Of a stretch of DNA of 64,000 nucleotides, positions 9,778 to 51,393 are shown piece by piece (position 1 is the first letter of the stretch; each line of letters opens with the position of its first letter). This stretch comes from Escherichia phage vB_vPM_PD06. Made by a program: the position numbers and the translations under genes. Below the pieces are notes generated by a model that did no database searches, was not told the DNA's origin, and saw only the letters and a list, made by a program, of their open reading frames with translations. The DNA lies in the sequence record NC_052653.1; one strand, written 5' to 3'.

Positions 9778-9854
9778 ATAATAAGTACACCACTGTAAGA
9801 AGCCTCAATGTGCTATTGACAGTTAACCAAGTCTACTCCTTGGATGGTGTTATT

Positions 9855-9929
9855 TGGTGCAGAGAGATGGTAACGATCCATCCTTTCTACCTTTTCAGGG
9901 TAGCACTAATCCGTCTCAGCTATCTCTGC
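9855..9929 (-). tRNA. tRNA-Phe (anticodon GAA)
   Basis: Acceptor GCAGAGA/TCTCTGC, anticodon arm CTACC-CTGAAAA-GGTAG, non-canonical T-loop ATCGTTA, CCA encoded. Confidence 0.65.
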
Positions 9930-9934
9930 AAATT

Positions 9935-10010
9935 TGGTCAGTGCGGCAGGACTCGAACCTGCGACCTGAAGCGTCCAAGGCTCCCACGCTACCAACTGCG
10001 CTACGCACTG
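9935..10010 (-). tRNA. tRNA-Pro (anticodon TGG)
   Basis: Acceptor CAGTGCG/CGCACTG, anticodon loop CTTGGAC, T-arm GCAGG-TTCGAGT-CCTGC, CCA encoded. Confidence 0.8.
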
Positions 10011-10017
10011 TAAATCT

Positions 10018-10092
10018 TGGCTGGAGATCTAGGAATCGAACCTAGTCATCACGACTTCAAAGGCCGTTGCCTTCCCACTAGGCTAATCTCCA
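10018..10092 (-). tRNA. tRNA-Gln (anticodon TTG)
   Basis: Acceptor TGGAGAT/ATCTCCA, anticodon arm ACGGC-CTTTGAA-GTCGT, T-arm CTAGG-TTCGATT-CCTAG, CCA encoded. Confidence 0.8.
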
Positions 10093-10523
10093 ATAAATTA
10101 CTTCAGTGTTACCACAAAGTGACGAACTGCTTTTCGTGCAGCAGAAGCCAGAGGCTTAGCATACTTAAGTTCATCTTTTTCCATTATAAATTCTCTTTTA
10201 AATGAAAATGCAGGACTTATTGGCATTGCCTGCGCAAGCCCTCAAGGGGAACATAGGTTTTTGGATATTTAACGACCAGGATAACCATAAACCCGTCATC
10301 ATTCACATTCAAGAGGTACACCATAAAACTGCCGGGGTCTTAAAACTATAATGATTCGCAAATCATTAATCAGACAGTTCGATGGCTCCTCGATTTTAGC
10401 TCACACTAAGGCAGTGAATCTCCAATAAACTAAAAAATCACTTAAAAAGAACCGCTAGAGTTTGAAGGAGAAAACCATGAGCGAAAAGAGAAATTTTCTC
10501 TAGCGATTCCATTTAAATAATCT

Positions 10524-10598
10524 TGGAGCGAGTAACAGGACTTGAACCTGCACCTGGAGGGTGGAAACCTCATATGCTACCATTAACACTATACCCGC
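10524..10598 (-). tRNA. tRNA-Gly (anticodon TCC)
   Basis: Acceptor GCGGGTA/TACTCGC, anticodon loop TTTCCAC, T-arm GCAGG-TTCAAGT-CCTGT, CCA encoded. Confidence 0.75.
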
Positions 10599-10653
10599 TT
10601 AACAATATTACTCTAACATACTATTAGCCCCTTTGTCAAGAGGCTTTTGATAC

Positions 10654-10983
10654 TTATTTTAAAATAGTAGATGCACCACGTCTGTTTAGATATGCAATAG
10701 TAAAGTCCAAATCACCTATTTCTTCAGGTTCCCACTGACCTTCTAAGCCATAACAAGAACAATGATATGCGTGTACTTCATAAAACAAAGATGTTTTCAT
10801 ATCATAAAAATAAACGTGAGATTCACCTTCATAATATGCACAATCATAAGTGGCAGAAAGAATTACAATGTTATCCTTATCTAACTCTACTTCATAATAT
10901 CTTTCAACATCTTCAATATCATCAAAACCATCGAAAACATTGATATTAAAATATTTCTCTAACTCTTTTTCTGTCACATACAC
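10654..10983 (-). CDS. Hypothetical protein embedded in tRNA array
   Basis: 109-aa ORF between tRNA-Gly and tRNA-Thr; Cys/Tyr-rich; no motif recognised. Confidence 0.5.
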   Translation of the reverse strand: MYVTEKELEKYFNINVFDGFDDIEDVERYYEVELDKDNIVILSATYDCAYYEGESHVYFYDMKTSLFYEVHAYHCSCYGLEGQWEPEEIGDLDFTIAYLNRRGASTILK

Positions 10984-10990
10984 TCCTTTA

Positions 10991-11065
10991 GAGTTAAAAT
11001 TGGTGCTCCCACAAGGACTCGAACCCTGATAAGTTGCTTACAAGGCAACCGTAATAGCCGTTATA
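10991..11065 (-). tRNA. tRNA-Thr (anticodon TGT)
   Basis: Acceptor GCTCCTA/TGGGAGC, anticodon arm GTTGC-CTTGTAA-GCAAC, T-loop TTCGAGT, CCA encoded. Confidence 0.8.
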
Positions 11066-11071
11066 CGATAG

Positions 11072-11148
11072 GAGCAATACTTGGACTCGGCAGGATTCGA
11101 TACCTGCAATTCCAGAAGCCTCTTGGCGACTGGGGGTTTACCTTAACT
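11072..11148 (-). tRNA. tRNA-like element, identity undetermined
   Basis: Acceptor GGACTTG/CGAGTCC pairs well; T-arm-like GCAGG-TATCGAAT-CCTGC with 8-nt loop; no canonical anticodon arm found by hand; CCA not encoded. Confidence 0.3.
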
Positions 11149-11155
11149 CTACAAG

Positions 11156-11240
11156 TCCATAATTCTGGCGATGGATCAAGGATTTGAACCTTGCTAGAAC
11201 TTTCGTTCACGGATTAACAGTCCGTCGCCCAACCACTAGG
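11156..11240 (-). tRNA. tRNA with anticodon GTT (Asn-type) and long extra arm
   Basis: Acceptor GATGGAT/ATCCATC, anticodon arm ACGGA-CTGTTAA-TCCGT, 15-nt variable region containing hairpin GAAC-GAAA-GTTC, T-loop TTCAAAT, CCA encoded. Confidence 0.55.
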
Positions 11241-11247
11241 CCAATCC

Positions 11248-11334
11248 ATCTTTAATTTGGTGCAGGTAGTTGGACTCGAACCAACGAAGCCCCGAAGGGC
11301 AAGAGATTTACAGTCTCCAGCAATTGCCGCTATG
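11248..11334 (-). tRNA. tRNA-Tyr (anticodon GTA)
   Basis: Acceptor GTAGGTA/TACCTGC, anticodon arm GGAGA-CTGTAAA-TCTCT, long variable arm, T-loop TTCGAGT, CCA encoded. Confidence 0.8.
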
Positions 11335-11339
11335 CGATA

Positions 11340-11415
11340 CCTACGTGTTTGGTACATCGTGAAGGATTCGAACCTTCGACCTTGGAGTTAAAAGCACCTT
11401 GCTCTACCAACTAAG
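11340..11415 (-). tRNA. tRNA-Lys (anticodon TTT)
   Basis: Perfect acceptor ACATCGT/ACGATGT, D-arm GCTT-AGTTGGTA-GAGC, anticodon loop CTTTTAA (stem has two mismatches), T-arm GAAGG-TTCGAAT-CCTTC, CCA encoded. Confidence 0.6.
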
Positions 11416-11559
11416 CTAACGATGTATAAATTATCTTTAAAATAGCCAGTGTTTGCGGCACTTAGCTATGAAGTATTGGGGTATCGGTAAAGTGGTTACC
11501 GCCACTTGCCGAAAGTTTACTCTGCTAAAGTAAGATTACAAGCTACATTAAAGATAACT

Positions 11560-11645
11560 TGGCGGTAGATGTAGGACTTGAACCTACACGCCGTTTCCGA
11601 CGACAGTTTAGCAAACTGTTGTGGCTACCATTTCACCAATCTACC
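11560..11645 (-). tRNA. tRNA-Ser (anticodon GCT)
   Basis: Acceptor GGTAGAT/ATCTACC, anticodon arm ACAGT-TTGCTAA-ACTGT, long variable arm, T-loop TTCAAGT, CCA encoded. Confidence 0.8.
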
Positions 11646-11653
11646 GTTCTTAA

Positions 11654-11806
11654 TTATTCAAAACAACCGGAATCTTTTTGTTCTGCTTTTACCATACGAA
11701 TATTTTTACCATCTTCAGATTGTTGAAGATTAGAATACTCATAAACAACTTTATTATCTACAATCTTAACTCCGGTAACAACCTGTCCAATAGTTTTATA
11801 ATTCAT
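11654..11806 (-). CDS. Small hypothetical protein
   Basis: About 50-aa ORF from ATG (MNYKTIG...) with AGGAG upstream; the longer track ORF would overlap tRNA-Ser. Confidence 0.35.
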   Translation of the reverse strand: MNYKTIGQVVTGVKIVDNKVVYEYSNLQQSEDGKNIRMVKAEQKDSGCFE

Positions 11807-11824
11807 AAAGCTCCTAGTTGAATT

Positions 11825-11914
11825 TGGAGGAAGATAATGGAGTCGAACCATCACCGTATCGCTACAATGGGCCAGGGTTCAAACCTGGTTGCGCACCGCT
11901 GCGCCCTACCTTCC
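11825..11914 (-). tRNA. tRNA-Ser (anticodon TGA)
   Basis: Acceptor GGAAGGT/ATCTTCC, anticodon arm CCAGG-TTTGAAC-CCTGG, long variable arm, T-arm GATGG-TTCGACT-CCATT, CCA encoded. Confidence 0.7.
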
Positions 11915-11975
11915 CGTTATCATACTTTAAATCTAACATAAAACTATCTTGCTTGTCAAGTAGTTTTTAAAACTT

Positions 11976-12057
11976 TTTGGTCGGGGTGACAGGATTCGAA
12001 CCTGCATACTCCAATTACTCGGTTAACGCCTGATTAGAAGTCAGGTGAGATACACCC
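11976..12057 (-). tRNA. Atypical tRNA-like gene, possibly Arg (TCT)
   Basis: Perfect acceptor CGGGGTG/CACCCCG, T-arm GCAGG-TTCGAAT-CCTGT, CCA encoded, hairpin CCTGA-CTTCTAA-TCAGG; no room for a normal D-arm. Confidence 0.4.
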
Positions 12058-12239
12058 CGTTTTCACAGTAACTATAACAAAAAACTAAGTGAATGTCAAG
12101 ATATTTTTACTAAAATTATTATTTAAATTGAAGCCTAGTTATGGAATCGAACCATATTTCGTATTTAGTTAGACAAAGCGGTCTAACATATTTTTCAGGC
12201 TTTGATGGCCTCGGAATTACCAAATACCCTACTAGGCGT

Positions 12240-12325
12240 TGGTGCAAGTGGAGGGATTCGAACCCTCAATCATTTAAGCGTTGCGTTTTAAGCACAATGT
12301 GTATCACCAATTCCACCACACTTGC
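12240..12325 (-). tRNA. tRNA-Leu (anticodon TAA)
   Basis: Perfect acceptor GCAAGTG/CACTTGC, anticodon arm TTGTG-CTTAAAA-CGCAA, long variable arm, T-arm GAGGG-TTCGAAT-CCCTC, CCA encoded. Confidence 0.75.
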
Positions 12326-12356
12326 ATATAGGAGATGCATAGCATCTCCTTTTAAA

Positions 12357-12432
12357 TGGTGGTTCCCCAGGGTTACAATCCCTGCCCTCGACACTTATGA
12401 GGTGTGCGCTCTCGTCAGTGAGCTATGGAACC
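12357..12432 (-). tRNA. tRNA with CAT anticodon (Met or Ile2), non-canonical T-loop
   Basis: D-arm GCTC-ACTGACGA-GAGC, anticodon loop CTCATAA, T-arm CAGGG-ATTGTAA-CCCTG, acceptor GGTTCCA/GGGAACC, CCA encoded. Confidence 0.65.
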
Positions 12433-12439
12433 TTGAATA

Positions 12440-12706
12440 TTAAGCATACTGGGTCATTTCACCAGCTTCGCGTTTCTCCAGAAGAACTGTAATCAAAGCA
12501 ATAGCTGCTTCTTCTTCGTGAGGAAGCCCCATTTCATCCAGAAGAGCAAGGAAGTCAATTACCAAACTTTCTGTTTTAAGGCTAACGCTACCATTTTCGT
12601 TTTCAGTAAGAACTGATTCAGGTTCAAAAATAAAGATTGCTCCACCTTTATTATCAATCAATACGTGCTTCTCAATCAGTTCTTTACCATAAGTACGTTC
12701 TGTCAT
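12440..12706 (-). CDS. Hypothetical protein
   Basis: 88-aa ORF directly upstream of tRNA array on same strand. Confidence 0.5.
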   Translation of the reverse strand: MTERTYGKELIEKHVLIDNKGGAIFIFEPESVLTENENGSVSLKTESLVIDFLALLDEMGLPHEEEAAIALITVLLEKREAGEMTQYA

Positions 12707-12886
12707 AGTTTTCTCCTTTTTGTTTAACTTGGGCTTATCTTAGCAAATAACTAGCTATGTTGTCAACTAGTTTTTACAATATTTTTTCTTGATCTGTAAC
12801 CTAGTGTATAACCGCATACAAAGGATACAATAGCAATAAAAACAGATAAGCCAAAAATAATTTCTGTAGACATACTGTTTCCTTAA

Positions 12887-13108
12887 TTATGTGAAATCTA
12901 ATTCCTCCTCTGGTGCTGTGTAATTTAGAAGAAGATCAGTTACACTTTGATGTTGATAAACCCTTTCGGGACTGTCATCGAATGCCAAACTTGTACAAAT
13001 CGAGCATAGATCCGACTCTTGAATATTACCATTCCTGTCTCTACGGGAATGATTAGTCAAGTGTCTGTTACAGGCTCGGCAACGAAAATAAAAATTATGT
13101 TGTTTCAT
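12887..13108 (-). CDS. Small zinc-ribbon-like protein
   Basis: 73 aa with paired CxxC motifs (CRACN ... CSIC). Confidence 0.45.
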   Translation of the reverse strand: MKQHNFYFRCRACNRHLTNHSRRDRNGNIQESDLCSICTSLAFDDSPERVYQHQSVTDLLLNYTAPEEELDFT

Positions 13109-13179
13109 AAATCCTTCGTGAAGCCCATCCAGGGCAGTTGTAGGCTCTCCTTACCTTAATCTTATCACGAAGTTTTTAT

Positions 13180-14913
13180 TTAGTCAACCTGGATGGTTCC
13201 CATAGTACGAAGAACCTCTACATCAACACGGTTGCGGATATCAGTGAATGTTTCATCACGACCTTCTACTTGTGGTGTAATAACCTTACCATTCTTGAAG
13301 ATAACTTGTAACTCATTGTCTTCATCCTGGATATCTTTAAAAGAAAGATTATCTACAAGAGAAAGATTACCATTGGTATCATTAACAACCTTAATAAAAC
13401 CTTTTGCAGAGCGTTTACCAGGATCAGTTTTAGGCTCCTTACTTACCAAAATTTCGTGTTCACCGATGATACTACCTGTTGCTTTAACAGCAAAACCAAA
13501 AGTATCTCGTGTATTGAACTGATAAGTATAACTACCAACACCAAATACAATATTGGAAGCTGCAAAACCTTTCTTCTTCAGTCGGCGTAAGATCTCGTGT
13601 TCTCGTTCAACAGTAATAGAATCACCATAAATCATACCGATATGCTGATCAAGAACCTTGTAGCCTTTTCGGTTGATAGTACCACCAAACACTTCCCAAA
13701 GGATTTGAATAGAACCTACTGCTTCACAATAAGGAATCTCATAAGTTTCATCAATACAGTCAGCAACACTGCAATCCTGAAGAACATTGTAATACTTATT
13801 AACATCAGCCAAATGAACTACTTCAGTGGCTGTCGCAATACCATTATTTAAGAGGTCTTGATAGTTATCAAAAGATTCAACATTGTATCCTGCAACAACT
13901 TTAACCGGATCTCCTGAATCTGGACGAATAACAAGACGACCATTTCGTGACATAATGGAATCTTTCAATTCTACCAGAATGCGAGTCAATACAGCCCAAT
14001 AGTCATAAGAGTCTGCTACATATGAACAAAAACCTTCTGGAACAATTTCTTCGATATAACGACGAAGAAACTCTTTTTCTGCTACATAACGAAGCCCATC
14101 TACATCATCTTTAAGATGTGGGAAATGTTTCTTCAGATCTTCAACAATAGATCCAATGTTAGTCGTTGCTACTGAATGTTCTGTTGCCGGAATCGAACCT
14201 GCAACAAACTGATCATAATCAATACCATAATAGTCATGCACAGTTTCAATAGCCAGAATATTATCTGTTCCTGTGAACGATGCCAAGTGAGCGATACCAC
14301 TCTTATAACCATCTTCGATATTACTTAAACCACGTAGGCTAAAATCATGACACTGGAAGTTAACGTGATCAATATTATCACACGTTGCCATCGCATATGC
14401 CATAGCGATACGCTTATACTGAAAAGCTGCTGTGGCATTAGTCATTGTCTTCCAAGTTTCATCTGACAACAGTGTTTCCACATAGTTAGTTAACCAAAAG
14501 AATTTTTCTAAAGTATTATGCACAGTAAACACAGGAACACCAATAGGACACAAAACACCTTCTGGCAGAGATCGAACTTCCAGCGGAAGATAACCTAAAT
14601 CGTGCAATTCTCCCCAACATTCCGCAGAAGGAGCAGAAGCACCTAACGCATTTTTAGACATACGATAAAATTTATTTACTGCTGCACTACGAGACATTTT
14701 AAAGAAGCTATCCCACATAGTTACAAGAGCATCAGTGACTGCTCGACGAATACCTAAAACAATCACACCACGTGCTTCACGATCTGCATAGTGTGCAAAG
14801 TTTTTATCATTACGAGGAGTTAAATTAGAGAAAATAAGTTTTGTATTTTGGTTGTACATCTGCTTGTGACCAGGTTTGTACCAATCAGTAGCAAAAGGTG
14901 CAAAAATATTCAT
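13180..14913 (-). CDS. nadV: Nicotinamide phosphoribosyltransferase (NAMPT)
   Basis: 577 aa; N-terminal MNIFAPFATDWYKPGHKQMY and overall length typical of NAMPT family. Confidence 0.85.
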   Translation of the reverse strand: MNIFAPFATDWYKPGHKQMYNQNTKLIFSNLTPRNDKNFAHYADREARGVIVLGIRRAVTDALVTMWDSFFKMSRSAAVNKFYRMSKNALGASAPSAECWGELHDLGYLPLEVRSLPEGVLCPIGVPVFTVHNTLEKFFWLTNYVETLLSDETWKTMTNATAAFQYKRIAMAYAMATCDNIDHVNFQCHDFSLRGLSNIEDGYKSGIAHLASFTGTDNILAIETVHDYYGIDYDQFVAGSIPATEHSVATTNIGSIVEDLKKHFPHLKDDVDGLRYVAEKEFLRRYIEEIVPEGFCSYVADSYDYWAVLTRILVELKDSIMSRNGRLVIRPDSGDPVKVVAGYNVESFDNYQDLLNNGIATATEVVHLADVNKYYNVLQDCSVADCIDETYEIPYCEAVGSIQILWEVFGGTINRKGYKVLDQHIGMIYGDSITVEREHEILRRLKKKGFAASNIVFGVGSYTYQFNTRDTFGFAVKATGSIIGEHEILVSKEPKTDPGKRSAKGFIKVVNDTNGNLSLVDNLSFKDIQDEDNELQVIFKNGKVITPQVEGRDETFTDIRNRVDVEVLRTMGTIQVD

Positions 14914-14984
14914 AGTTATGTCTCCTTGTTTGTTAATGTGGGAGTATCTTACTAAGCATACTCCCTATTGTCAACACTTATTAT

Positions 14985-15878
14985 TTAAAAATTCCACACG
15001 TATGGAGATACAATTTGTTGTTGCAAATCTGACTGATTCTTAACAAGAACACCAGAATCTTCTTGGATGTTATCTTCCCACACATTAAGAGAATGAATGC
15101 AGTCAAAGTGCTCACTTAACTCTTTAAGACCTTTAGAAAAGATACCGTGTGTAACATATAGCTCAATCTTACCTGCGTTACGAGCACGTAGCACTTTAGC
15201 CAATTCGATAAAAGTTCTACCACCATCACAGATATCATCTACGATCATCAGGTTACGCTTATTGAAATCCTGTACAGAAATGTCTGTACGAACAATAGCA
15301 CCTGTTGCGGTATCTCTAACCTTCTCTGCACAGAACACATCTAAAGACATTTTCTTAGATAATTTAAATATTTTCTTAAGAGCACCACCATCAGGGCTAA
15401 CAAGAGCAAAATTCTCCATACGTAACTTCCACTTTAAAGTTTCGTAAGCAATCTCTTCTTGAGGCATTACACAGAGTCTGTCAAACACTGCTGGAGTAAC
15501 ATCACTATGCGGATCAGCAACGATAACACGTGAGAAATTTAATGAATTAATTATAGAAGCAAATGCTTTAACTCCGAATGCTTCCCCAGGCTCACACACT
15601 CTGTCTTGTCGTGCATACGGCACATACAACATGAGTAAATCAACACAATATGGTTTATGATATAGCATATTGTCCAATGCATTCTTAGTCATAACCAAAG
15701 TCATCAAGTCTTTAGCAGATCTTACTTCTAAAGTGAGTAAGATTCTGTCTGTAGCATGATTGAAACCTGATAGATTCGTATCTAATTGAACATGTTGTTC
15801 TCCACCAGAGAATGTAAACACTTTAACGTCTACATCAGTAACATAACAGTCAACACCATGCAGAATACTAACTTTCAT
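14985..15878 (-). CDS. prs: Ribose-phosphate pyrophosphokinase (PRPP synthetase)-like
   Basis: YARQDR motif, SPDGG, and PRPP-binding loop MIVDDICDGGRT. Confidence 0.8.
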   Translation of the reverse strand: MKVSILHGVDCYVTDVDVKVFTFSGGEQHVQLDTNLSGFNHATDRILLTLEVRSAKDLMTLVMTKNALDNMLYHKPYCVDLLMLYVPYARQDRVCEPGEAFGVKAFASIINSLNFSRVIVADPHSDVTPAVFDRLCVMPQEEIAYETLKWKLRMENFALVSPDGGALKKIFKLSKKMSLDVFCAEKVRDTATGAIVRTDISVQDFNKRNLMIVDDICDGGRTFIELAKVLRARNAGKIELYVTHGIFSKGLKELSEHFDCIHSLNVWEDNIQEDSGVLVKNQSDLQQQIVSPYVWNF

Positions 15879-15879
15879 T

Positions 15880-16298
15880 CTTTATCTCCTTAGTTGCGTT
15901 AGGACTTTATGTTCTCTACTCTACATACAGATAGATCTAAAGTCAATAGATATTTATTATTTAATTAATAATAAAATTAATAAATAATTAATAAATAATC
16001 TATTGTTAGTATAGAGCATGTATGTTAGTATTATAGATATAACATAGTGCTATATGTAGACTACTCAGTTGTCTGTTAGATCATGTATCACAAGATTAGA
16101 TAACACCCCCTCGCTGCGCTCGGCGTTTTTCGGGGGTTAGGGTAGCATACTTTTTTGCGTTTGTCAACACCTTTTTGGATTATTTTTAAGTACAACCTGA
16201 ACCTCCTAAAAACGATTGTAACGAGTTTTACTGTGAGGTAAGGTGATTGCATATCTTAGAGGCTATTAGCTCGTTACAGAGCCATACAGGAGGGAATA
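15880..16298. promoter_or_regulatory. Divergent intergenic control region
   Basis: 419-bp non-coding gap between diverging gene blocks; 50-bp pure A/T tract with reiterated TAATTAATAA units (15951-16000) and a GC-rich hairpin near 16105-16135. Confidence 0.45.
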
Positions 16299-17731: not shown

Positions 17732-17922
17732 TGTTCCTTATTTATTCAGGTAAAGCCAAATACATGCAAGGTGTGAAGCGTGTAAAAGTAGTAGATACTG
17801 TAACTATAGGAAAATCCTTTATTCTTTATTTGTTTTATATCAATGGAGAAAGATTTGCTGTTTCTAAGAAGTTGGTAGATAATGGTAAAACTTGGAAAGA
17901 AGAGAAACAGGAAGGGGGTTGA
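17731..17922 (+). CDS. Hypothetical protein
   Basis: 63-aa ORF. Confidence 0.4.
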   Translation: MFLIYSGKAKYMQGVKRVKVVDTVTIGKSFILYLFYINGERFAVSKKLVDNGKTWKEEKQEGG

Positions 17923-17924
17923 TA

Positions 17925-18266
17925 GTGGCTAAAATTCTTTGGTTAGACGATTTAAGAGATCCTAAAGATTATGGTTATGAGGATGCCATTTGGTTAAAAT
18001 CTTTTGAGGATTGGTTATCTTTTGTTTCAGATGAAGATAATTTCAATAATATCTCAGAGATACACTTCGATAATGATCTTGGAGAAGATCAAGAAGGATA
18101 TCATGCGTTCTTAGACGTAGAATGTATGTTGTACGCGGGTGAATGGGATGCTCTTAAAACTATCTATGTTCATACATCAAATCCTTCTGCTGCTGGTAAA
18201 TATATGTTAGCCAAGGAAAATTTTATTTCATCCTATGGTGTTGAAATTAAACGTGTTAACTATTAA
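17925..18266 (+). CDS. Hypothetical protein
   Basis: GTG start preceded by GGAAGGGGG; about 113 aa. Confidence 0.45.
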   Translation: MAKILWLDDLRDPKDYGYEDAIWLKSFEDWLSFVSDEDNFNNISEIHFDNDLGEDQEGYHAFLDVECMLYAGEWDALKTIYVHTSNPSAAGKYMLAKENFISSYGVEIKRVNY

Positions 18267-18421
18267 GGAGGTGTTATGCTTTATGTTATTTGGGTAGATG
18301 AAGGGGATGGGTTTTATATATACAAACACACTAACCATTGGCCCGATGTAGAAAAAGCACTTGCAACTTTTGAAGATTGCTTTTACGATATACATACAGA
18401 CGAAGAGTATGTAGAAAATTG

Positions 18422-18781
18422 ATGTGCGCTACTAATCAACATGATATTTGTTACCAACCTCTTACTTGGATTGGTGAGGATCACTATGCTCAACGTGTTA
18501 TAGTCTGCGCTGCGAATAAGTATATTCTCAACAATGGCGAAGAGTTAATTATTCCTTGTGTTAGGCATGCAAATCCTGTACTATCTGCACAACTTAATGT
18601 TTTAAAAGATGCAGGATTGATCGATAAACTGTTTTGCTTACCTGATAATCAAGGGTTTATTGATCAATATTATAATTGGTGGAGTCGCAAAGATGCTTAT
18701 ATCATTGCAGATAACGCCAAACAAATTAACTATGAAAGAAATGGTCACGACAGTGAACTATTCAGCGAGGGATTATACTAA
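18422..18781 (+). CDS. Hypothetical protein
   Basis: ATG at 18422 (MCATNQHD...), about 119 aa. Confidence 0.45.
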   Translation: MCATNQHDICYQPLTWIGEDHYAQRVIVCAANKYILNNGEELIIPCVRHANPVLSAQLNVLKDAGLIDKLFCLPDNQGFIDQYYNWWSRKDAYIIADNAKQINYERNGHDSELFSEGLY

Positions 18782-19332
18782 TGTTTATTACAAGTGATTT
18801 GCATTTTATGCACAAACGTATTCGAGAGTTTGCTCCTGAATATCGCCCGTGGGAAGATATGGAGCATATGACAGAAGCACTGATTGAAGCATGGAATAAA
18901 TGTGCTACGAGTCCTGGTGTCAAGATGTGGCATTTGGGCGACTTCTGTTTCGGGACTGAAGAAGATACCCGTAAAATTGCTTCACGTCTTCAAGGTGATA
19001 TCACTTACTGTGTTGGGAACCATGATTACAGCAAACACCGAGAAGTGCTTGCAGAATATGGCGAGGTGGTGTATTATGACGAAGTGAAATATCAGAAACT
19101 GTTCTTCGTCTTAAGTCATTACCCTATGGCTGCTTGGAATAAACAAGGGCATGGATCAATCATGCTACACGGGCACTCTCACGGATCATTCCCTGATCAT
19201 TTGTATGGGAAAATGTTGGATGTTGGTTGGGATGCACACGGAAAAATCTTGCATTTTGACGAAATCATCTCTATTATGGATAAGCGTGATATTGTTGTTG
19301 TAGACCATCATAAGATAATCAAAGGAGATTAA
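18781..19332 (+). CDS. Calcineurin-like metallophosphoesterase
   Basis: Motifs SDLHFMH, GDFCFG, GNHD, then His-rich HGHSHG. Confidence 0.7.
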   Translation: MFITSDLHFMHKRIREFAPEYRPWEDMEHMTEALIEAWNKCATSPGVKMWHLGDFCFGTEEDTRKIASRLQGDITYCVGNHDYSKHREVLAEYGEVVYYDEVKYQKLFFVLSHYPMAAWNKQGHGSIMLHGHSHGSFPDHLYGKMLDVGWDAHGKILHFDEIISIMDKRDIVVVDHHKIIKGD

Positions 19333-19333
19333 G

Positions 19334-20266
19334 GTGGCTAAGTTCAATTGTGATGACCTGATTGCAAAAGGTTTAGTGCATAAAAAAGAAGTTAAATCTG
19401 GAGAGTATGCTGGTCTTGCTGTACTTAAATACAAAAACAATGTATTCTGGGATAACTTGTGGAACGTTGACAAACGACTCCTAGATTGTCGTGGGTTGGT
19501 TGTTGACTCAGAAGACAATGTTGTTATCTGGCCTTTTACTAAAATCTTTAATCGTTTTGAGAATGGTACAGATCTTCCAGCAGACCAGCTTGTAGATGCT
19601 GTCCGTAAAGTAAACGGTTTTATGGCATCTGTAGGTGTGTACAAAGGGCAACTTATTGTATCAACAACAGGGAGCCTAGAGTCAGATTTTGCAACTCTTG
19701 CCAAGAACCATATTGTTTCCGAGTGTGATGACATAGAATATTTCATTAAGTGGACAGAAAGTGCAAAAGCAACTTTCCTTTTTGAAATCTGTGATCCTTC
19801 TGATCCACATATTGTCGAAGAAGAACCAGGCGCATACTTAATTGGAGCAAGAATTCAAAATCTTGATGGGACAAGTTTCATGCTACCCGAAGGTGTGCTT
19901 GATGGGATTGCATCTATTACAAAATTTAAACGTCCTGAAGTTTATCCGATGATTAAATTTTCAGATGTTGTTGAAATGTCTAAACATTGTAAGCACGAAG
20001 GGTTTGTTGTTCGGGAAACAAACTATCCGTTTAACTTGCTGTTAAAGATTAAGTCACCATATTATCTTGCTAAGAAATTCCTTATGCGTGGTGGCAATAA
20101 GAAGTGGGATATGATTTGGGACAACCCAAAAAATGCTAAACAAATTGTTGACGAAGAATATTATACTTTGCTAGAATGGCTTCGAAACAACTTTACTAAG
20201 ACTCAATGGGCTGCTTTAGATCCACAAGAGCGACGTAAAGAAATAGAAAACTTCTTTGGAGGCTAA
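19334..20266 (+). CDS. Polynucleotide ligase, RNA-ligase-like
   Basis: Nucleotidyltransferase motifs: I VRKVNGF (KxNG), IV HEGFVVRE, V LLKIKSPYY; GTG start with GGAG upstream. Confidence 0.6.
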   Translation: MAKFNCDDLIAKGLVHKKEVKSGEYAGLAVLKYKNNVFWDNLWNVDKRLLDCRGLVVDSEDNVVIWPFTKIFNRFENGTDLPADQLVDAVRKVNGFMASVGVYKGQLIVSTTGSLESDFATLAKNHIVSECDDIEYFIKWTESAKATFLFEICDPSDPHIVEEEPGAYLIGARIQNLDGTSFMLPEGVLDGIASITKFKRPEVYPMIKFSDVVEMSKHCKHEGFVVRETNYPFNLLLKIKSPYYLAKKFLMRGGNKKWDMIWDNPKNAKQIVDEEYYTLLEWLRNNFTKTQWAALDPQERRKEIENFFGG

Positions 20267-20671
20267 ATGAAACAACTTATCATTTTACGTGGTGTTTCAG
20301 GTGCAGGTAAATCTACAGTAGCAGAAATTATTTCTGAAGGTTATTGGCCTATCTGTGAGGCAGATCAATATCATTACACAGAAAGTGGTGTTTACGATTG
20401 GAAGCCAGAGAATGTAGGTAAAGCACACGCATGGTGTCAGAGTATTGTTCGTGATGCTATGGTATCTAATATTAAAAAGATTATTGTCTCTAACACTTCA
20501 ACCACAGAGAAAGAACTTAAACCTTATTTAACTCTTGCTGAAGAGTTTGGTTATCAAGTTATCTCCTTAGTTGTTGAAAATAGGCACGGTAACGACTCAA
20601 TTCATGAGGTTCCACAACATACTCGTGATCAGCAAGAGAAACGTCTTCGCAGTTCACTTAAGCTACAATAA
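20267..20671 (+). CDS. P-loop kinase, polynucleotide-kinase-like
   Basis: Walker A GVSGAGKST near N-terminus; 134 aa; start abuts ligase stop. Confidence 0.6.
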   Translation: MKQLIILRGVSGAGKSTVAEIISEGYWPICEADQYHYTESGVYDWKPENVGKAHAWCQSIVRDAMVSNIKKIIVSNTSTTEKELKPYLTLAEEFGYQVISLVVENRHGNDSIHEVPQHTRDQQEKRLRSSLKLQ

Positions 20672-21229: not shown

Positions 21230-21426
21230 GGGTAACTATGACATTTATTGAAGAACTAACGAGAATTGCAAACGCACCTAACAGTAGCGAAGATCCTTAC
21301 TTTATGGTGGATGATTACACTGGTGGTAATATTGATGATGCCTATGAACTAGGCAGACTACACGGTGAAATTGAAATGGCTAAATGGGTTCTTTCGCAAC
21401 TGGAGGTTAAAGATGAAACAAACTAA
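21223..21426 (+). CDS. Hypothetical protein
   Basis: 67-aa ORF. Confidence 0.4.
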   Translation: MVRVTMTFIEELTRIANAPNSSEDPYFMVDDYTGGNIDDAYELGRLHGEIEMAKWVLSQLEVKDETN

Positions 21427-22528
21427 TCCTACACTATATGGTAAAACTTCTACAGGTAAAATTAAACAGTGGTCAGTCTATACCGAAGGTAGTGTTGTAA
21501 CTGTTGCTCATGGTCAATTAGGTGGAAAGATTACTAGCAAATCTTATACAGCAGAACCTAAAAATATTGGTCGCTCAAATGAAACAACAGCAGAAGAACA
21601 AGCTGAAATAGAAGCTCTTGCCAAATGGACAAAGCAACTTAAGAATGGGTATTATAAAACAAAAGAGGAAGCTGAAAACCATGTTCCTTCCACACCCATG
21701 AAATGTCAGGATTATAAAGATTATGCTGATCGTGTTTTGTTCCCAGGTTATGCACAGTATAAATTGAATGGTCTACGTTCAATGATTAACATGCAAGGTG
21801 AATGTTTATCTAAAGCTGGGGAAGTATATAAACTTCCACCTCACTGGAAAGAAATTCCAACCTTCATTAAAGAAGTAGTTGGTCATCCTCTTGATGGTGA
21901 AGTTTTTGCTGGTTTGGGTGTTCTTAGCCTTCAGCAAATTAATAGTGCGTGGAAAAAGCATAATGCTAACACTCCGCTTCTTAAATACTATGTATATGAT
22001 GTTCCTGTGCCATCTGTACCATTTGAGAAGAGGGTTGAAGTTTTGGCTGCTCTAAAAGAAGTTGTTGAAGATAAAGGTTTAGATGAACTTATTTGTGTAG
22101 TGCATACAGAGTACATTGAAAACCAAGAGCAGTTTGATGAATTCTATGCAAAAGCTCTGCGTGAGAAAGCGGAAGGTGTGGTGTATCGTAATGCACAAGG
22201 TGTTTACGAGTTTGATAAACGTTCTTATGATGTTATTAAACGTAAACCACGGCAGACGCTTGAAGTTAAGGTGGTAAGTGCAAAACGTGATAAAAATGGT
22301 GACGGGGTATTGACAGGCGAGATGGAAAATGGTAAAGTAGTCGAATTCCTGATGCGTAAGGATTCAGATGAAACCATTAACTATCGTAAAGCAGAAAATG
22401 CCGAAATGTTAATTGGTAAATTTGTTGAGATTGAGTATGAAGAGTTTTCCGATGGTGGAATACCTACTAAACCAACAGGTGTACGTGTACGTAAGATGAT
22501 TCCAGGTACTTGGGAACCAGCAGAATAA
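21413..22528 (+). CDS. ATP-dependent polynucleotide ligase (DNA or RNA ligase)
   Basis: ATG at 21413 with GGAGG upstream; motifs I YKLNGLR, III HPLDGEVF, IV AEGVVYRN, V VIKRKP, then OB-like tail. Confidence 0.6.
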   Translation: MKQTNPTLYGKTSTGKIKQWSVYTEGSVVTVAHGQLGGKITSKSYTAEPKNIGRSNETTAEEQAEIEALAKWTKQLKNGYYKTKEEAENHVPSTPMKCQDYKDYADRVLFPGYAQYKLNGLRSMINMQGECLSKAGEVYKLPPHWKEIPTFIKEVVGHPLDGEVFAGLGVLSLQQINSAWKKHNANTPLLKYYVYDVPVPSVPFEKRVEVLAALKEVVEDKGLDELICVVHTEYIENQEQFDEFYAKALREKAEGVVYRNAQGVYEFDKRSYDVIKRKPRQTLEVKVVSAKRDKNGDGVLTGEMENGKVVEFLMRKDSDETINYRKAENAEMLIGKFVEIEYEEFSDGGIPTKPTGVRVRKMIPGTWEPAE

Positions 22529-50580: not shown

Positions 50581-51393
50581 ATGCGAAGAGTAATTTTTGT
50601 TAGTGGCGCAGGTTTAAGTGCAGACAGTGGGATTCGAACGTTCCGAACAGACACAGATAGTGGTCGTGCCTTATGGGAAGAATATGACTTAGAAGAGGTC
50701 TGCGATATTGGAGCTTTCCAAGCAGGTTATCGTGTGAGAACATCTCCAGATCTTCCAGTGGTCGGTGGTGTAGACGAGAACGGTATGGACTTATATGCCA
50801 AAACACACGAATTTTATAACAAAAGACGTGTTGAGCTTAAAGATGTACAACCTAATGCTGCACATATTCAAATAGCAAAGTGGTTTAAGGAATATCCTAA
50901 CCAAGTAGTAAACTTGACAACAAACGTCGATGATCTACTAGAGCGAGCAGGTGTGGACAGGGATTCTGTTATTCACGTGCACGGGTATCTCCCTGAAGTA
51001 GTTTACCGTATGCATCCTGGAGATTACAAAACACTGGTAGACATTGGTTACAATAGTATAAACATAGATGATTATAACTGGGTGAAGCCTAATGTTGTAT
51101 TTTTTGGTGAGGCTGCACCTTTGTATGCAGATATGGCTCACTTGTTTGATACTTTGACCATGCAAGATTTGGTTGTTGTAGTAGGATGTTCAAACCAAGT
51201 TATCAATTTTAATTGGGAATTATTCCCTGCACTTACTATGGGTACAAAAATGATTGTTGTTAACCCAGGAATTAATTACGAAGAAACTCTTCTTTACGAA
51301 GATAGAGGAGTCTTTGTTTATAGAGAAAAGGCAGCAGATGCTTTTAGCAATCCTGCTTTCATAAAAATGATAGAAGATCATTTGACTAAGTAA
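50581..51393 (+). CDS. Sir2 (sirtuin) family NAD+-dependent enzyme
   Basis: VIFVSGAGLSADSGIRTFR, TTNVDDLLERAG, HVHG, VVFFGE, VVVVGCS; no CxxC zinc module seen. Confidence 0.8.
   Translation: MRRVIFVSGAGLSADSGIRTFRTDTDSGRALWEEYDLEEVCDIGAFQAGYRVRTSPDLPVVGGVDENGMDLYAKTHEFYNKRRVELKDVQPNAAHIQIAKWFKEYPNQVVNLTTNVDDLLERAGVDRDSVIHVHGYLPEVVYRMHPGDYKTLVDIGYNSINIDDYNWVKPNVVFFGEAAPLYADMAHLFDTLTMQDLVVVVGCSNQVINFNWELFPALTMGTKMIVVNPGINYEETLLYEDRGVFVYREKAADAFSNPAFIKMIEDHLTK

What the first reader, a model, noticed from the sequence alone, without database searches (positions are those of the whole stretch)
13180..15878. NAD+ salvage pair: NAMPT plus PRPP synthetase
Adjacent minus-strand genes encode nicotinamide phosphoribosyltransferase and a PRPP synthetase-like enzyme (YARQDR, VDDICDGGRT), which together convert nicotinamide and ribose-5-phosphate to NMN. 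Phage NAD+-rebuilding pathways are known to counter NAD+-depleting immune systems; an NMN adenylyltransferase was not seen in this window. The same genome also carries a Sir2 homolog, an NAD+-consuming fold.
Basis: partly seen in the sequence, partly recalled or inferred. Interest (0 to 1): 0.6.

Follow-up and report, generated by a model that had tools for sequence, protein, structure and literature searches.

The report
Known phage NAD+ rebuilding operon (NARP1)
These two adjacent phage genes are real, but they are the already described NARP1 pair (Adps plus Namat), which rebuilds NAD+ directly from ADP-ribose and nicotinamide after a bacterial defence system has destroyed it; they are not a PRPP synthetase plus NAMPT making NMN.

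Summary
Both minus-strand ORFs sit exactly where stated: 14985-15878 (297 aa, Prs-like) and 13180-14913 (577 aa, NAMPT-like). They are 71 bp apart, and the quoted motifs are present. The window comes from a phi92-like E. coli phage (Justusliebigvirus), 99.1% identical to phage PHB05 across the locus.

The pair is the core two-gene NARP1 operon of Osterman et al. 2024. Near-identical proteins from phi92, PHB05 and the BASEL phages JohannJBalmer and PaulScherrer are listed in that paper's tables as Adps homologs with a Namat nearby, and as "Adps-associated" Namat. Tests run here agree:
- The 297-aa protein groups with validated Adps enzymes and away from E. coli, B. subtilis and human Prs. It fails every Prs equivalog cut-off.
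- The 577-aa protein carries the Namat-specific adenine-clamp motif (GSYTYQFNTRD). KVP40 and human NAMPT have GGGLLQ-type sequence there.
- No NMNAT or Nudix gene was found in the window or in the whole PHB05 genome.

The likely chemistry is therefore ADPR + ATP -> ADPR-PP, then ADPR-PP + nicotinamide -> NAD+. No NMN step and no NMNAT are needed. This is already known, so interest is low. Activity of this particular ortholog is inferred, not shown.

The parts
14985..15878 (-). adps: Prs-family ADP-ribose pyrophosphate (ADPR-PP) synthetase, 297 aa, first gene of the pair
   Evidence: ORF. It passes TIGR01251 at 119 bits (cut-off 113) but scores 50-98 bits against Prs equivalog/subfamily models whose cut-offs are 296-536. 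It is 36% identical to Bas63 gp79 Adps, E 5e-44. It lies inside the Adps group and apart from E. coli, B. subtilis and human Prs in an NJ tree. Window K186 aligns with SPbetaL1 K162 and E. coli K194, and the protein has the Adps-type DPHSDV, EKVRDTATGAI and DDICDGGRT motifs. Near-identical phi92, PHB05 and JohannJBalmer proteins are listed in 'Adps homologs', Table S1.
13180..14913 (-). namat: NAMPT-family nicotinamide ADP-ribose transferase, 577 aa, second gene
   Evidence: ORF. The best solved-structure match is SPbetaL1 Namat 9w5x, E 2e-119 and 403 bits, against about 175 bits for human NAMPT. It is 39% identical to Bas63 gp80. The selectivity-clamp helix motif G460-S-Y462-T-Y-Q-F466-N-T468-R469-D470 matches the published Namat consensus, whereas KVP40 and human NAMPT have GGGLLQ-type sequence. 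The catalytic residues F191, R194, D217, R330 and D332 are conserved, as is H246, the His of the invariant EHS motif. The PHB05, phi92 and JohannJBalmer orthologs are listed as 'Adps-associated' in Table S2.
15918..15946 (-). promoter-like site upstream of adps (TTGACT-N17-TAGAGT), followed by an AAGGAGA ribosome-binding site and the ATG at 15878
   Evidence: Consensus scan and sequence reading. This is a pattern match only, not evidence of function.
14946..14974 (-). promoter-like site in the 71-bp adps-namat gap (TTGACA-N17-TAAGAT), followed by AAGGAGA and the ATG at 14913
   Evidence: The same TTGAC(A/T)-N17/18-TAAGAT pattern recurs before the next two small minus-strand ORFs. This is a pattern match only.

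Best explanation
The locus is a core two-gene NARP1 (NAD+ reconstitution pathway 1) operon of a phi92-like (Justusliebigvirus) coliphage. When a host SIR2-, TIR- or SEFIR-type effector cleaves NAD+ into ADP-ribose and nicotinamide, the proposed sequence is as follows. The 297-aa Adps uses ATP to add pyrophosphate to the ADPR ribose, giving ADPR-PP. The 577-aa Namat then displaces the pyrophosphate with nicotinamide and regenerates NAD+ in one step. No PRPP, NMN or NMN adenylyltransferase is involved. The chemistry was shown for SPbetaL1 enzymes in vitro and for the Bas63 operon in vivo. For this ortholog it is inferred from clade membership, signature residues and gene adjacency.
For: (1) Published cataloguing. 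Osterman et al. (bioRxiv 10.1101/2024.02.11.579819) list the near-identical phi92, PHB05, JohannJBalmer and PaulScherrer proteins in Table S1 ('Adps homologs', Namat within 10 genes: Yes). The phi92, PHB05 and JohannJBalmer proteins are also in Table S2 ('Adps-associated'). The operon was first noticed in four BASEL phages. Bas60-62 are Justusliebigvirus, and JohannJBalmer is 97.9% identical in DNA to this locus.
(2) Adps side. In an NJ tree of 22 sequences, the window protein sits inside the 19-member Adps group (bootstrap 78%). It lies among Gram-negative phage Adps sequences including Bas63, with the validated SPbetaL1 and FADO proteins in the sister subgroup, and it is separate from E. coli, B. 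subtilis and human Prs. It fails all Prs equivalog cut-offs. It lacks the canonical QIQGFF, DT.GT and C-terminal Prs motifs but keeps the mutationally validated Lys (SPbetaL1 K162 = window K186).
(3) Namat side. It scores 403 bits to the SPbetaL1 Namat structure 9w5x against about 175 bits to human NAMPT. The diagnostic motif GSXphiXphiXphiTRD is present with aromatics at the adenine-stacking positions (Y462, F466), where KVP40 and human NAMPT have Gly and Gln/Lys. The catalytic core is intact.
(4) Architecture. The genes are on the same strand, 71 bp apart, with adps first, as in Bas63 genes 79-80 and SPbetaL1 genes 190-191. A PHROG family (phrog_12872) and a Shigella phage Ag3 ORF fuse the two proteins.
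(5) No NMNAT. phmmer with E. coli NadD and NadR against six-frame translations of the window plus the complete PHB05 genome gave nothing better than E = 2. There was no Nudix box and no HxGH motif. The paper reports that no phage carries both NARP1 and NARP2.
(6) Mechanism in relatives. SPbetaL1 Adps makes ADPR-PP from ADPR and ATP. SPbetaL1 Namat makes only NAD+ when given ADPR-PP and PRPP together. Bas63 lacking genes 79-80 becomes sensitive to SIR2-HerA, and the wild type still escapes in a host lacking pncC and nadR.
Against: No phi92-type Adps or Namat has been assayed. Identity to the tested proteins is moderate: 36% and 39% to Bas63, and 34% (BLASTP) and 46% (MAFFT) to SPbetaL1. The variable clamp loop (SCL) deviates from the published rule. 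After the conserved Pro-Arg, the window has N-D-K-N-F, so the fourth residue is Asn rather than the aromatic stacker seen in Bas63 (K-W). Namat enzymes still make NMN from PRPP in vitro when ADPR-PP is absent, so a minor NMN route cannot be excluded. My tree is small: NJ, only three canonical Prs sequences, 78% support. The NMNAT search used single-sequence queries and would miss a very divergent enzyme.
Confidence: 0.9

Rival explanations
1. Classical salvage. The Prs-like enzyme makes PRPP from ribose-5-phosphate, the NAMPT-like enzyme makes NMN, and host NadR or PncC (or an unseen phage NMNAT) finishes NAD+.
For: Pfam, NCBIfam and PHROGs all name the proteins this way. The Prs catalytic motifs RQDR and DD..GG.T are present. 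Namat homologs can make NMN from PRPP in vitro.
Against: The SPbetaL1 homolog gave no measurable product in the assay for PRPP-synthetase activity. The Bas63 operon works without host pncC and nadR. The window protein is in the Adps group, fails Prs equivalog cut-offs and lacks canonical Prs motifs. The window Namat has the ADPR-PP adenine clamp motif that true NAMPTs lack. No NMNAT was found in the genome.
Confidence: 0.05
2. NARP2-type pathway (NAMPT plus NMNAT, as in Vibrio phage KVP40), with the Prs-like gene merely boosting PRPP supply.
For: The NAMPT-family fold is present. NARP2 is a known phage counter-defence.
Against: No NMNAT or Nudix gene was found in the window or in the whole PHB05 genome. 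The window protein is 33% identical to KVP40 NadV against 43-46% to validated Namats, and it has the Namat motif rather than the KVP40 GGGLLQ motif. According to the paper, NARP2 Nampt homologs occur in phages that lack any Adps homolog.
Confidence: 0.02
3. General auxiliary metabolic genes that raise nucleotide or NAD+ pools for replication, with no relation to host immunity.
For: The genome carries many nucleotide-metabolism genes, including ribonucleotide reductases, thymidylate synthase and thymidine kinase.
Against: In relatives, ADPR-PP appears only when a NAD+-depleting system is active, and NARP1 does not raise NAD+ in cells without a defence system. The substrate ADPR is scarce in undefended cells.
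Confidence: 0.03

Closest known systems
NARP1 (Adps + Namat) of coliphage Bas63 / JohannRWettstein, genes 79-80 (Osterman et al. 2024)
   Same: Same gene order and strand, with a short gap (46 bp in Bas63, 71 bp here). Both have a Prs-like protein of about 295 aa and a long (577-593 aa) Namat with insertions at the same two sites. The Namat SCH motif is shared (GSYTYQ[FY].TRD). No NMNAT is present. Both infect E. coli.
   Different: Identity is only 36% (Adps) and 39% (Namat), and the phages belong to different families (Felixounavirus against Justusliebigvirus). The SCL loop is K-W in Bas63 and K-N-F here. Here the operon sits at the head of a leftward block that runs into a 15-tRNA cluster, rather than between nrd genes and rIIA/B.
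NARP1 of Bacillus phage SPbetaL1 (genes 190/191; Namat crystal structures 9w5w/9w5x)
   Same: The catalytic residues are shared, and the adenine-clamp helix positions are retained as aromatics (F392/Y396 correspond to Y462/F466). The Adps lysine K162 corresponds to K186.
   Different: SPbetaL1 Namat is 491 aa and lacks two insertions present here, roughly window residues 255-277 and 346-399. Its SCL uses Arg40, where the window has Lys37. Its Adps uses DDLSSFGGT instead of DDICDGGRT.
NARP2 of Vibrio phage KVP40 (NadV Nampt + NatV Nmnat)
   Same: NAMPT-family enzyme, and the same biological purpose of restoring NAD+ during infection.
   Different: NARP2 uses PRPP and makes NMN, so it needs an Nmnat. 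KVP40 NadV has GGGLLQQLDRD where Namat has GSYTYQFNTRD. No Nmnat is present here, and a Prs-like partner is present instead.
NARP1-AP (Adps-Adpp-Namat, Vibrio phage Gary; Osterman et al. 2026 preprint)
   Same: Same two core enzymes.
   Different: No Macro-domain phosphatase lies within two genes of this operon. The only Macro-domain protein found, PHB05 gp179, is about 65 kb away in the tellurite-resistance cluster and outside the window.
Canonical class I PRPP synthetase (E. coli / B. subtilis Prs, human PRPS1)
   Same: Same fold family (PF13793/PF14572/PF00156). The RQDR motif, the catalytic Lys and the DD acidic pair are shared.
   Different: Identity is 21-24% across the MAFFT alignment (28% over the BLASTP-aligned 243 residues to E. 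coli Prs). The QIQGFF motif is missing. The 5-phosphate loop is DGGRT instead of DTxGT. The C-terminal LAEAIRR...SVS segment is missing. All equivalog cut-offs are failed.

Membership tests
NARP1 | A Prs-family protein that falls in the phage Adps clade, separate from cellular Prs | tested here: met
   In the NJ tree, the window protein is nested among 19 Adps-table sequences (bootstrap 78%). It lies among Gram-negative phage Adps sequences including Bas63, with SPbetaL1 and FADO in the sister subgroup, and apart from three canonical Prs. It fails Prs equivalog cut-offs. Near-identical proteins are listed in Table S1, 'Adps homologs'.
NARP1 | Namat selectivity-clamp helix motif G-S-X-phi-X-phi-X-phi-T-R-D with aromatic X at the adenine-stacking positions | tested here: met
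   Window residues 460-470 read GSYTYQFNTRD. Y462 and F466 align with SPbetaL1 F392 and Y396. KVP40 and human NAMPT have G/Q and G/K at those positions.
NARP1 | Namat selectivity-clamp loop (SCL) supplying a stacking residue: an Arg at the third position, or an aromatic at the fourth position after Lys/Tyr | tested here: inconclusive
   The window SCL is N35-D36-K37-N38-F39. The third residue is Lys, as in Bas63, but the fourth is Asn rather than Trp. Phe39 follows, and the loop is longer. The published data show that this loop is variable and that single mutants lose only 1.3-1.7-fold activity.
NARP1 | Intact catalytic residues: the Adps Lys (SPbetaL1 K162) and the Namat Phe, Arg, Asp, His and Arg (SPbetaL1 F189, R192, D215, catalytic His, R306) | tested here: met
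   Adps K186 aligns with K162. Namat F191, R194, D217, R330 and D332 are conserved, as is H246 in the invariant EHS motif.
NARP1 | adps and namat adjacent (within 10 genes), on the same strand | tested here: met
   Both are on the minus strand, 71 bp apart, with adps upstream.
NARP1 | Adps converts ADPR + ATP to ADPR-PP and does not make PRPP; Namat prefers ADPR-PP over PRPP and yields NAD+ | not testable with these tools
   Shown only for SPbetaL1 enzymes in vitro, and by metabolomics for Bas63.
NARP1 | Confers escape from NAD+-depleting defence systems | not testable with these tools
   Shown for Bas63, FADO and SPbetaL1 operons. No experiment on a Justusliebigvirus was found.
NARP2 | An NMN adenylyltransferase encoded in the same genome | tested here: not met
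   phmmer with NadD and NadR against six-frame translations of the window and the whole PHB05 genome gave a best E of 2. No Nudix box or HxGH motif was found. The annotated 'nucleotidyltransferase' gp151 gives only a weak, below-threshold match to the PolyA_pol head domain.
NARP2 | A PRPP-preferring Nampt of the KVP40 clade | tested here: not met
   Identity to KVP40 NadV is 33%, against 43-46% to Namats. The protein has the Namat motif, not the KVP40 motif.
NARP1-AP | A Macro-domain ADPR-1''-phosphate phosphatase (Adpp) within two genes of the operon | tested here: not met
   Neither flanking ORF on each side has a Macro hit in Pfam, and the two downstream ORFs also have none in PHROGs.
Canonical PRPP synthetase (Prs) | Scores above the curated equivalog cut-offs and has the QIQGFF, DTxGT and C-terminal motifs | tested here: not met
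   Scores are 50-98 bits against cut-offs of 296-536. The motifs are absent.

The most novel reading that the evidence does not exclude
The phi92-type NARP1 might differ functionally from the characterised ones in any of three ways. First, its Namat has a non-canonical clamp loop (K-N-F instead of R or K-W) and two insertions relative to SPbetaL1 Namat (about 23 and about 50 residues), which could change donor specificity or regulation. Second, the Macro-domain 'phosphatase' encoded about 65 kb away next to a ComF-like PRTase could act in trans as an Adpp, giving NARP1-AP-like resistance to aRES. Third, the phage's own CobB-like sirtuin could be metabolically coupled to the pathway. None of these is supported by more than co-occurrence.
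Probability: 0.08. Interest if true: 0.4.

Novelty: already known. Interest (0 to 1): 0.12.

Why it matters
NARP1 is an important, broad-spectrum phage counter-defence. It neutralises Thoeris type I, DSR1/2, SIR2-HerA, SEFIR and similar systems by undoing their chemistry rather than blocking their proteins. For this window, the practical value is a corrected annotation. Pfam, NCBIfam, PHROGs and GenBank records still name these genes 'ribose-phosphate pyrophosphokinase' and 'nicotinamide/nicotinate phosphoribosyltransferase'. Those names lead readers to the wrong pathway and to a search for an NMNAT that does not exist. Nothing new about biology follows from this instance, because the same genus (Bas60-62) was part of the original discovery set.

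Tried and rejected
- The search for related loci with KVP40 NadV as a single query returned only KVP40 itself and one 97%-identical contig. I could not build a broad Nampt/Namat tree, so I relied on the published diagnostic motif plus bit-score contrasts.
- I looked for accessory NARP1 genes next to the operon: a Macro-domain Adpp (NARP1-AP) and a RyR-domain RyDEP. Pfam and PHROGs found neither.
- PADLOC gave nothing meaningful for either protein or for the Sir2 homolog.
- The 'nucleotidyltransferase' gp151 of PHB05, a possible NMNAT, gave only a weak, below-threshold match to the PolyA_pol head domain.
- Nudix-box and HxGH regex scans of all six frames were negative.
- Literature searches for experiments on Justusliebigvirus NARP1 found none. 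The BME3 paper does not mention these genes.
- One fetch of an annotated region failed on coordinates.
I used them only after full-length matches to PDB entries 8dbc/2h06, 1dkr and 2gvg confirmed them.
- I did not run the large protein-database searches or structure prediction, because the answer did not depend on them.
Full report
**Observation**

The two ORFs are exactly as described: 14985..15878 (-), 297 aa, and 13180..14913 (-), 577 aa, both with ATG starts and 71 bp apart. The 297-aa translation contains YARQDR and VDDICDGGRT.

Family assignments are unambiguous at the superfamily level.
- The 577-aa protein hits Pfam NAPRTase PF04095 (E 5e-38), NCBIfam PRK09198 (462 bits, cut-off 405) and phrog_448 (E 3e-188).
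- The 297-aa protein hits TIGR01251 ribP_PPkin at 119 bits, just above the subfamily cut-off of 113. It scores only 50-98 bits against the more specific Prs models, whose cut-offs are 296-536.

The 297-aa protein is therefore a divergent member of the Prs family, not an ortholog of cellular Prs.

**Source**

The 3.9-kb region around the locus is 99.1% identical to Escherichia phage vB_EcoM_PHB05. It is 97-99% identical to about 50 other phi92-like phages (Stephanstirmvirinae, Justusliebigvirus), including the BASEL phage JohannJBalmer at 97.9%.

The genes lie at the head of a leftward transcription block. The GC skew flips near 16,000. The block runs through two small ORFs into a cluster of 15 tRNA genes at 9377-12432.

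**What is known about this gene pair**

Osterman et al. (bioRxiv 10.1101/2024.02.11.579819; from my own knowledge, later published in Nature in 2024) noticed this 'Prs + Nampt' operon in four BASEL phages. Their results are as follows.
- Deleting genes 79-80 of Bas63 sensitises the phage to SIR2-HerA.
- The operon still works in a host lacking pncC and nadR.
- ADPR-pyrophosphate accumulates only in infected, defended cells.
- The purified SPbetaL1 Prs-like enzyme gave no measurable product in the assay for PRPP-synthetase activity. It converts ADPR + ATP into ADPR-PP, and they named it Adps.
- The purified Nampt-like enzyme joins ADPR-PP and nicotinamide to give NAD+, and they named it Namat. 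It makes only NAD+ when offered ADPR-PP and PRPP together.

They called this pathway NARP1 and found it in 4.3% of phage genomes. NARP2 (KVP40 Nampt + Nmnat) is a separate clade, and no phage carries both.

Their supplementary tables list the phi92, PHB05, JohannJBalmer and PaulScherrer Prs-like proteins among 'Adps homologs' with 'Namat within 10 genes: Yes'. The partners of phi92, PHB05 and JohannJBalmer are listed as 'Adps-associated'. The listed JohannJBalmer Adps differs from the window protein at two of 297 residues. Bas60-62 are Justusliebigvirus, so this genus accounts for three of the four BASEL phages in which the operon was first seen.

**Independent tests of the Adps side**

The window protein is 36% identical to Bas63 gp79 (E 5e-44). 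It is 34% identical over 176 residues to SPbetaL1 Adps and 28% identical to E. coli Prs.

I built a MAFFT/NJ tree of 22 sequences: the window protein, 18 Adps-table sequences, E. coli Prs fetched from MG1655, and B. subtilis Prs and human PRPS1. The last two were recalled from memory and verified as full-length PDB matches. The 19 phage proteins form one group (78% of 200 bootstraps), separate from the three cellular Prs. The window protein is nested among Gram-negative phage Adps sequences that include the validated Bas63 protein. The validated SPbetaL1 and FADO proteins lie in the sister Gram-positive subgroup.

Column inspection shows the following.
- The lysine that was mutated to inactivate SPbetaL1 Adps (K162) aligns with window K186 and E. 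coli K194.
- Canonical 'DLHA.QIQGFF' is replaced by 'DPHSDV'.
- Canonical 'DKRRP' is replaced by 'EKVRDTATGAI'.
- Canonical 'DD.xDTxGT' is replaced by 'DDICDGGRT'.
- The C-terminal Prs segment is missing.

The last four differences are my own alignment observations, not published determinants.

**Independent tests of the Namat side**

The best solved-structure matches are 9w5x and 9w5w (E about 1e-119, 403 bits). I confirmed that these are SPbetaL1 Namat, with a 100% match over 491 aa. Human and other NAMPTs score about 175 bits. MAFFT identities are 43% to Bas63, 46% to SPbetaL1, 33% to KVP40 NadV and 31% to human NAMPT (the human sequence was verified).

Lan et al. (NAR 2026, PMC12774641) defined the feature that makes a Namat prefer ADPR-PP. 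It is a 'selectivity clamp' made of a conserved helix motif, GSX-phi-X-phi-X-phi-TRD with aromatic X residues that stack on the adenine, plus a variable loop called the SCL. The sequences at the helix motif are:

| Protein | Sequence |
|---|---|
| Window (residues 460-470) | GSYTYQFNTRD |
| Bas63 Namat | GSYTYQYMTRD |
| SPbetaL1 Namat | GSFTYQYNTRD |
| KVP40 NadV | GGGLLQQLDRD |
| Human NAMPT | GSGGGLLQKLTRD |

Window Y462 and F466 align with the stacking residues F392 and Y396 of SPbetaL1. The catalytic core (F191, R194, D217, H246, R330, D332) is intact.

The SCL is the one point that does not fit neatly. The window has N-D-K-N-F, so the fourth position is Asn, not an aromatic as in Bas63 (K-W). 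The loop is known to be variable and individually dispensable. I therefore score this feature as inconclusive.

Relative to SPbetaL1 Namat, the window protein has insertions at about residues 255-277 and 346-399. Bas63 Namat has insertions at the same sites.

**No NMNAT and no accessory genes**

phmmer with E. coli NadD and NadR against all six-frame segments of the window and the complete PHB05 genome gave nothing better than E = 2. Nudix-box and HxGH regex scans were also empty. The annotated 'nucleotidyltransferase' of PHB05 gives only a weak, below-threshold match to the PolyA_pol head domain.

The flanking ORFs carry neither a Macro domain (NARP1-AP) nor a RyR domain (RyDEP). This is therefore the minimal two-gene form. 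A PHROG family and a Shigella phage Ag3 ORF fuse Adps and Namat, which supports their functional coupling.

**Expression signals (pattern matches only)**

A TTGACT-N17-TAGAGT site lies at 15946-15918, upstream of adps. A TTGACA-N17-TAAGAT site lies at 14974-14946, in the gap before namat. Each is followed by AAGGAGA and an ATG. The same TTGAC(A/T)-N17/18-TAAGAT pattern precedes the next two small ORFs.

**Mechanism, with shown and inferred steps marked**

1. Host SIR2, TIR or SEFIR effectors split NAD+ into ADPR and nicotinamide. This is established for those systems.
2. Adps transfers pyrophosphate from ATP to ADPR. This was shown for SPbetaL1 and detected in vivo for Bas63. It is inferred here.
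3. Namat replaces the pyrophosphate with nicotinamide to give NAD+. This was shown for SPbetaL1, with crystal structures. It is inferred here from the motif and the catalytic core.

I put 0.9 on this explanation. The classical PRPP/NMN reading gets about 0.05.

**Verdict**

The locus is an already known system in a genus that was part of the original discovery. Interest is low.

Noticed in passing
window 17892-20671 (+): An RNA-repair-like gene set lies just across the divergent region. It comprises a cREC_REC 'cyclic-phosphate processing receiver' domain protein (17892-18266, PF20274, E 3e-14), a calcineurin-like phosphoesterase (18781-19332), a T4 Rnl1-type RNA ligase (19334-20266, PF09511) and a small P-loop kinase-like protein (20267-20671, AAA_33). 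An ATP-dependent DNA ligase follows at 21365-22528. The set resembles the T4 Pnkp/Rnl1 tRNA-repair counter-defence, and it sits near the phage's tRNA cluster.
   Followed up: partly
window 9377-12432 (-): A cluster of 15 tRNA genes (Ile, two Met, two Leu, Phe, Pro, Gln, Gly, Thr, Asn, Tyr, Lys, two Ser) lies directly downstream of the NARP1 genes on the same strand.
   Followed up: no
window 50581-51393 (+): A phage-encoded Sir2-family protein of 270 aa (PF02146, 81 bits). Its closest solved relatives are CobB-type NAD-dependent protein deacylases (1s5p, 6rxj; E about 1e-18). It has no hit to PADLOC defence SIR2 models. Its function in the phage is unknown, and no link to NARP1 was found.
   Followed up: partly
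PHB05 (NC_052652.1) 115600-117815, outside the window; locus L007 44601-46816 (-): Within the tellurite-resistance (TerC/TerD-like) cluster, the closest relative encodes three adjacent genes: a Macro-domain 'phosphatase' (gp179, PF01661), a ComF-like PRTase (gp180, PF15610, E 1e-41) and a HAD hydrolase (gp181). Because Macro-domain Adpp enzymes extend NARP1 in other phages, this gene could matter in trans. That idea is untested.
   Followed up: no
window 12737-12766, 13159-13187, 14946-14974 (-): A recurring promoter-like motif, TTGAC(A/T)-N17/18-TAAGAT, is followed about 20-50 nt later by an AAGGAGA ribosome-binding site in front of three successive minus-strand genes. This suggests gene-by-gene promoters of one class.
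   Followed up: partly
window 15952-15999 and 16100-16140: The 420-bp divergent intergenic region upstream of adps contains an AT-rich tandem repeat (TAATTAATAAA, 3.4 copies). It also contains a GC-rich hairpin (CCCCCG...CGAGGGGG), which the scan flags as terminator-like on the + strand.
   Followed up: no
window 12764-12872 (-): A short hydrophobic ORF (MSTEIIFGLSVFIAIVSFVCGYTLGYRSRKNIVKTS, 35 aa) lies between the 73-aa zinc-ribbon-like ORF (12887-13108) and the 88-aa ORF (12440-12706). No CDS is annotated at this position in PHB05 (NC_052652.1).
   Followed up: no
Osterman Table S1 entry FJ373894_00125 (Shigella phage Ag3) and phrog_12872: An apparent Adps::Namat fusion ORF exists in an Ackermannviridae phage. 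A 547-position PHROG profile matches both window proteins. This is either a true fusion or a sequencing frameshift.
   Followed up: no
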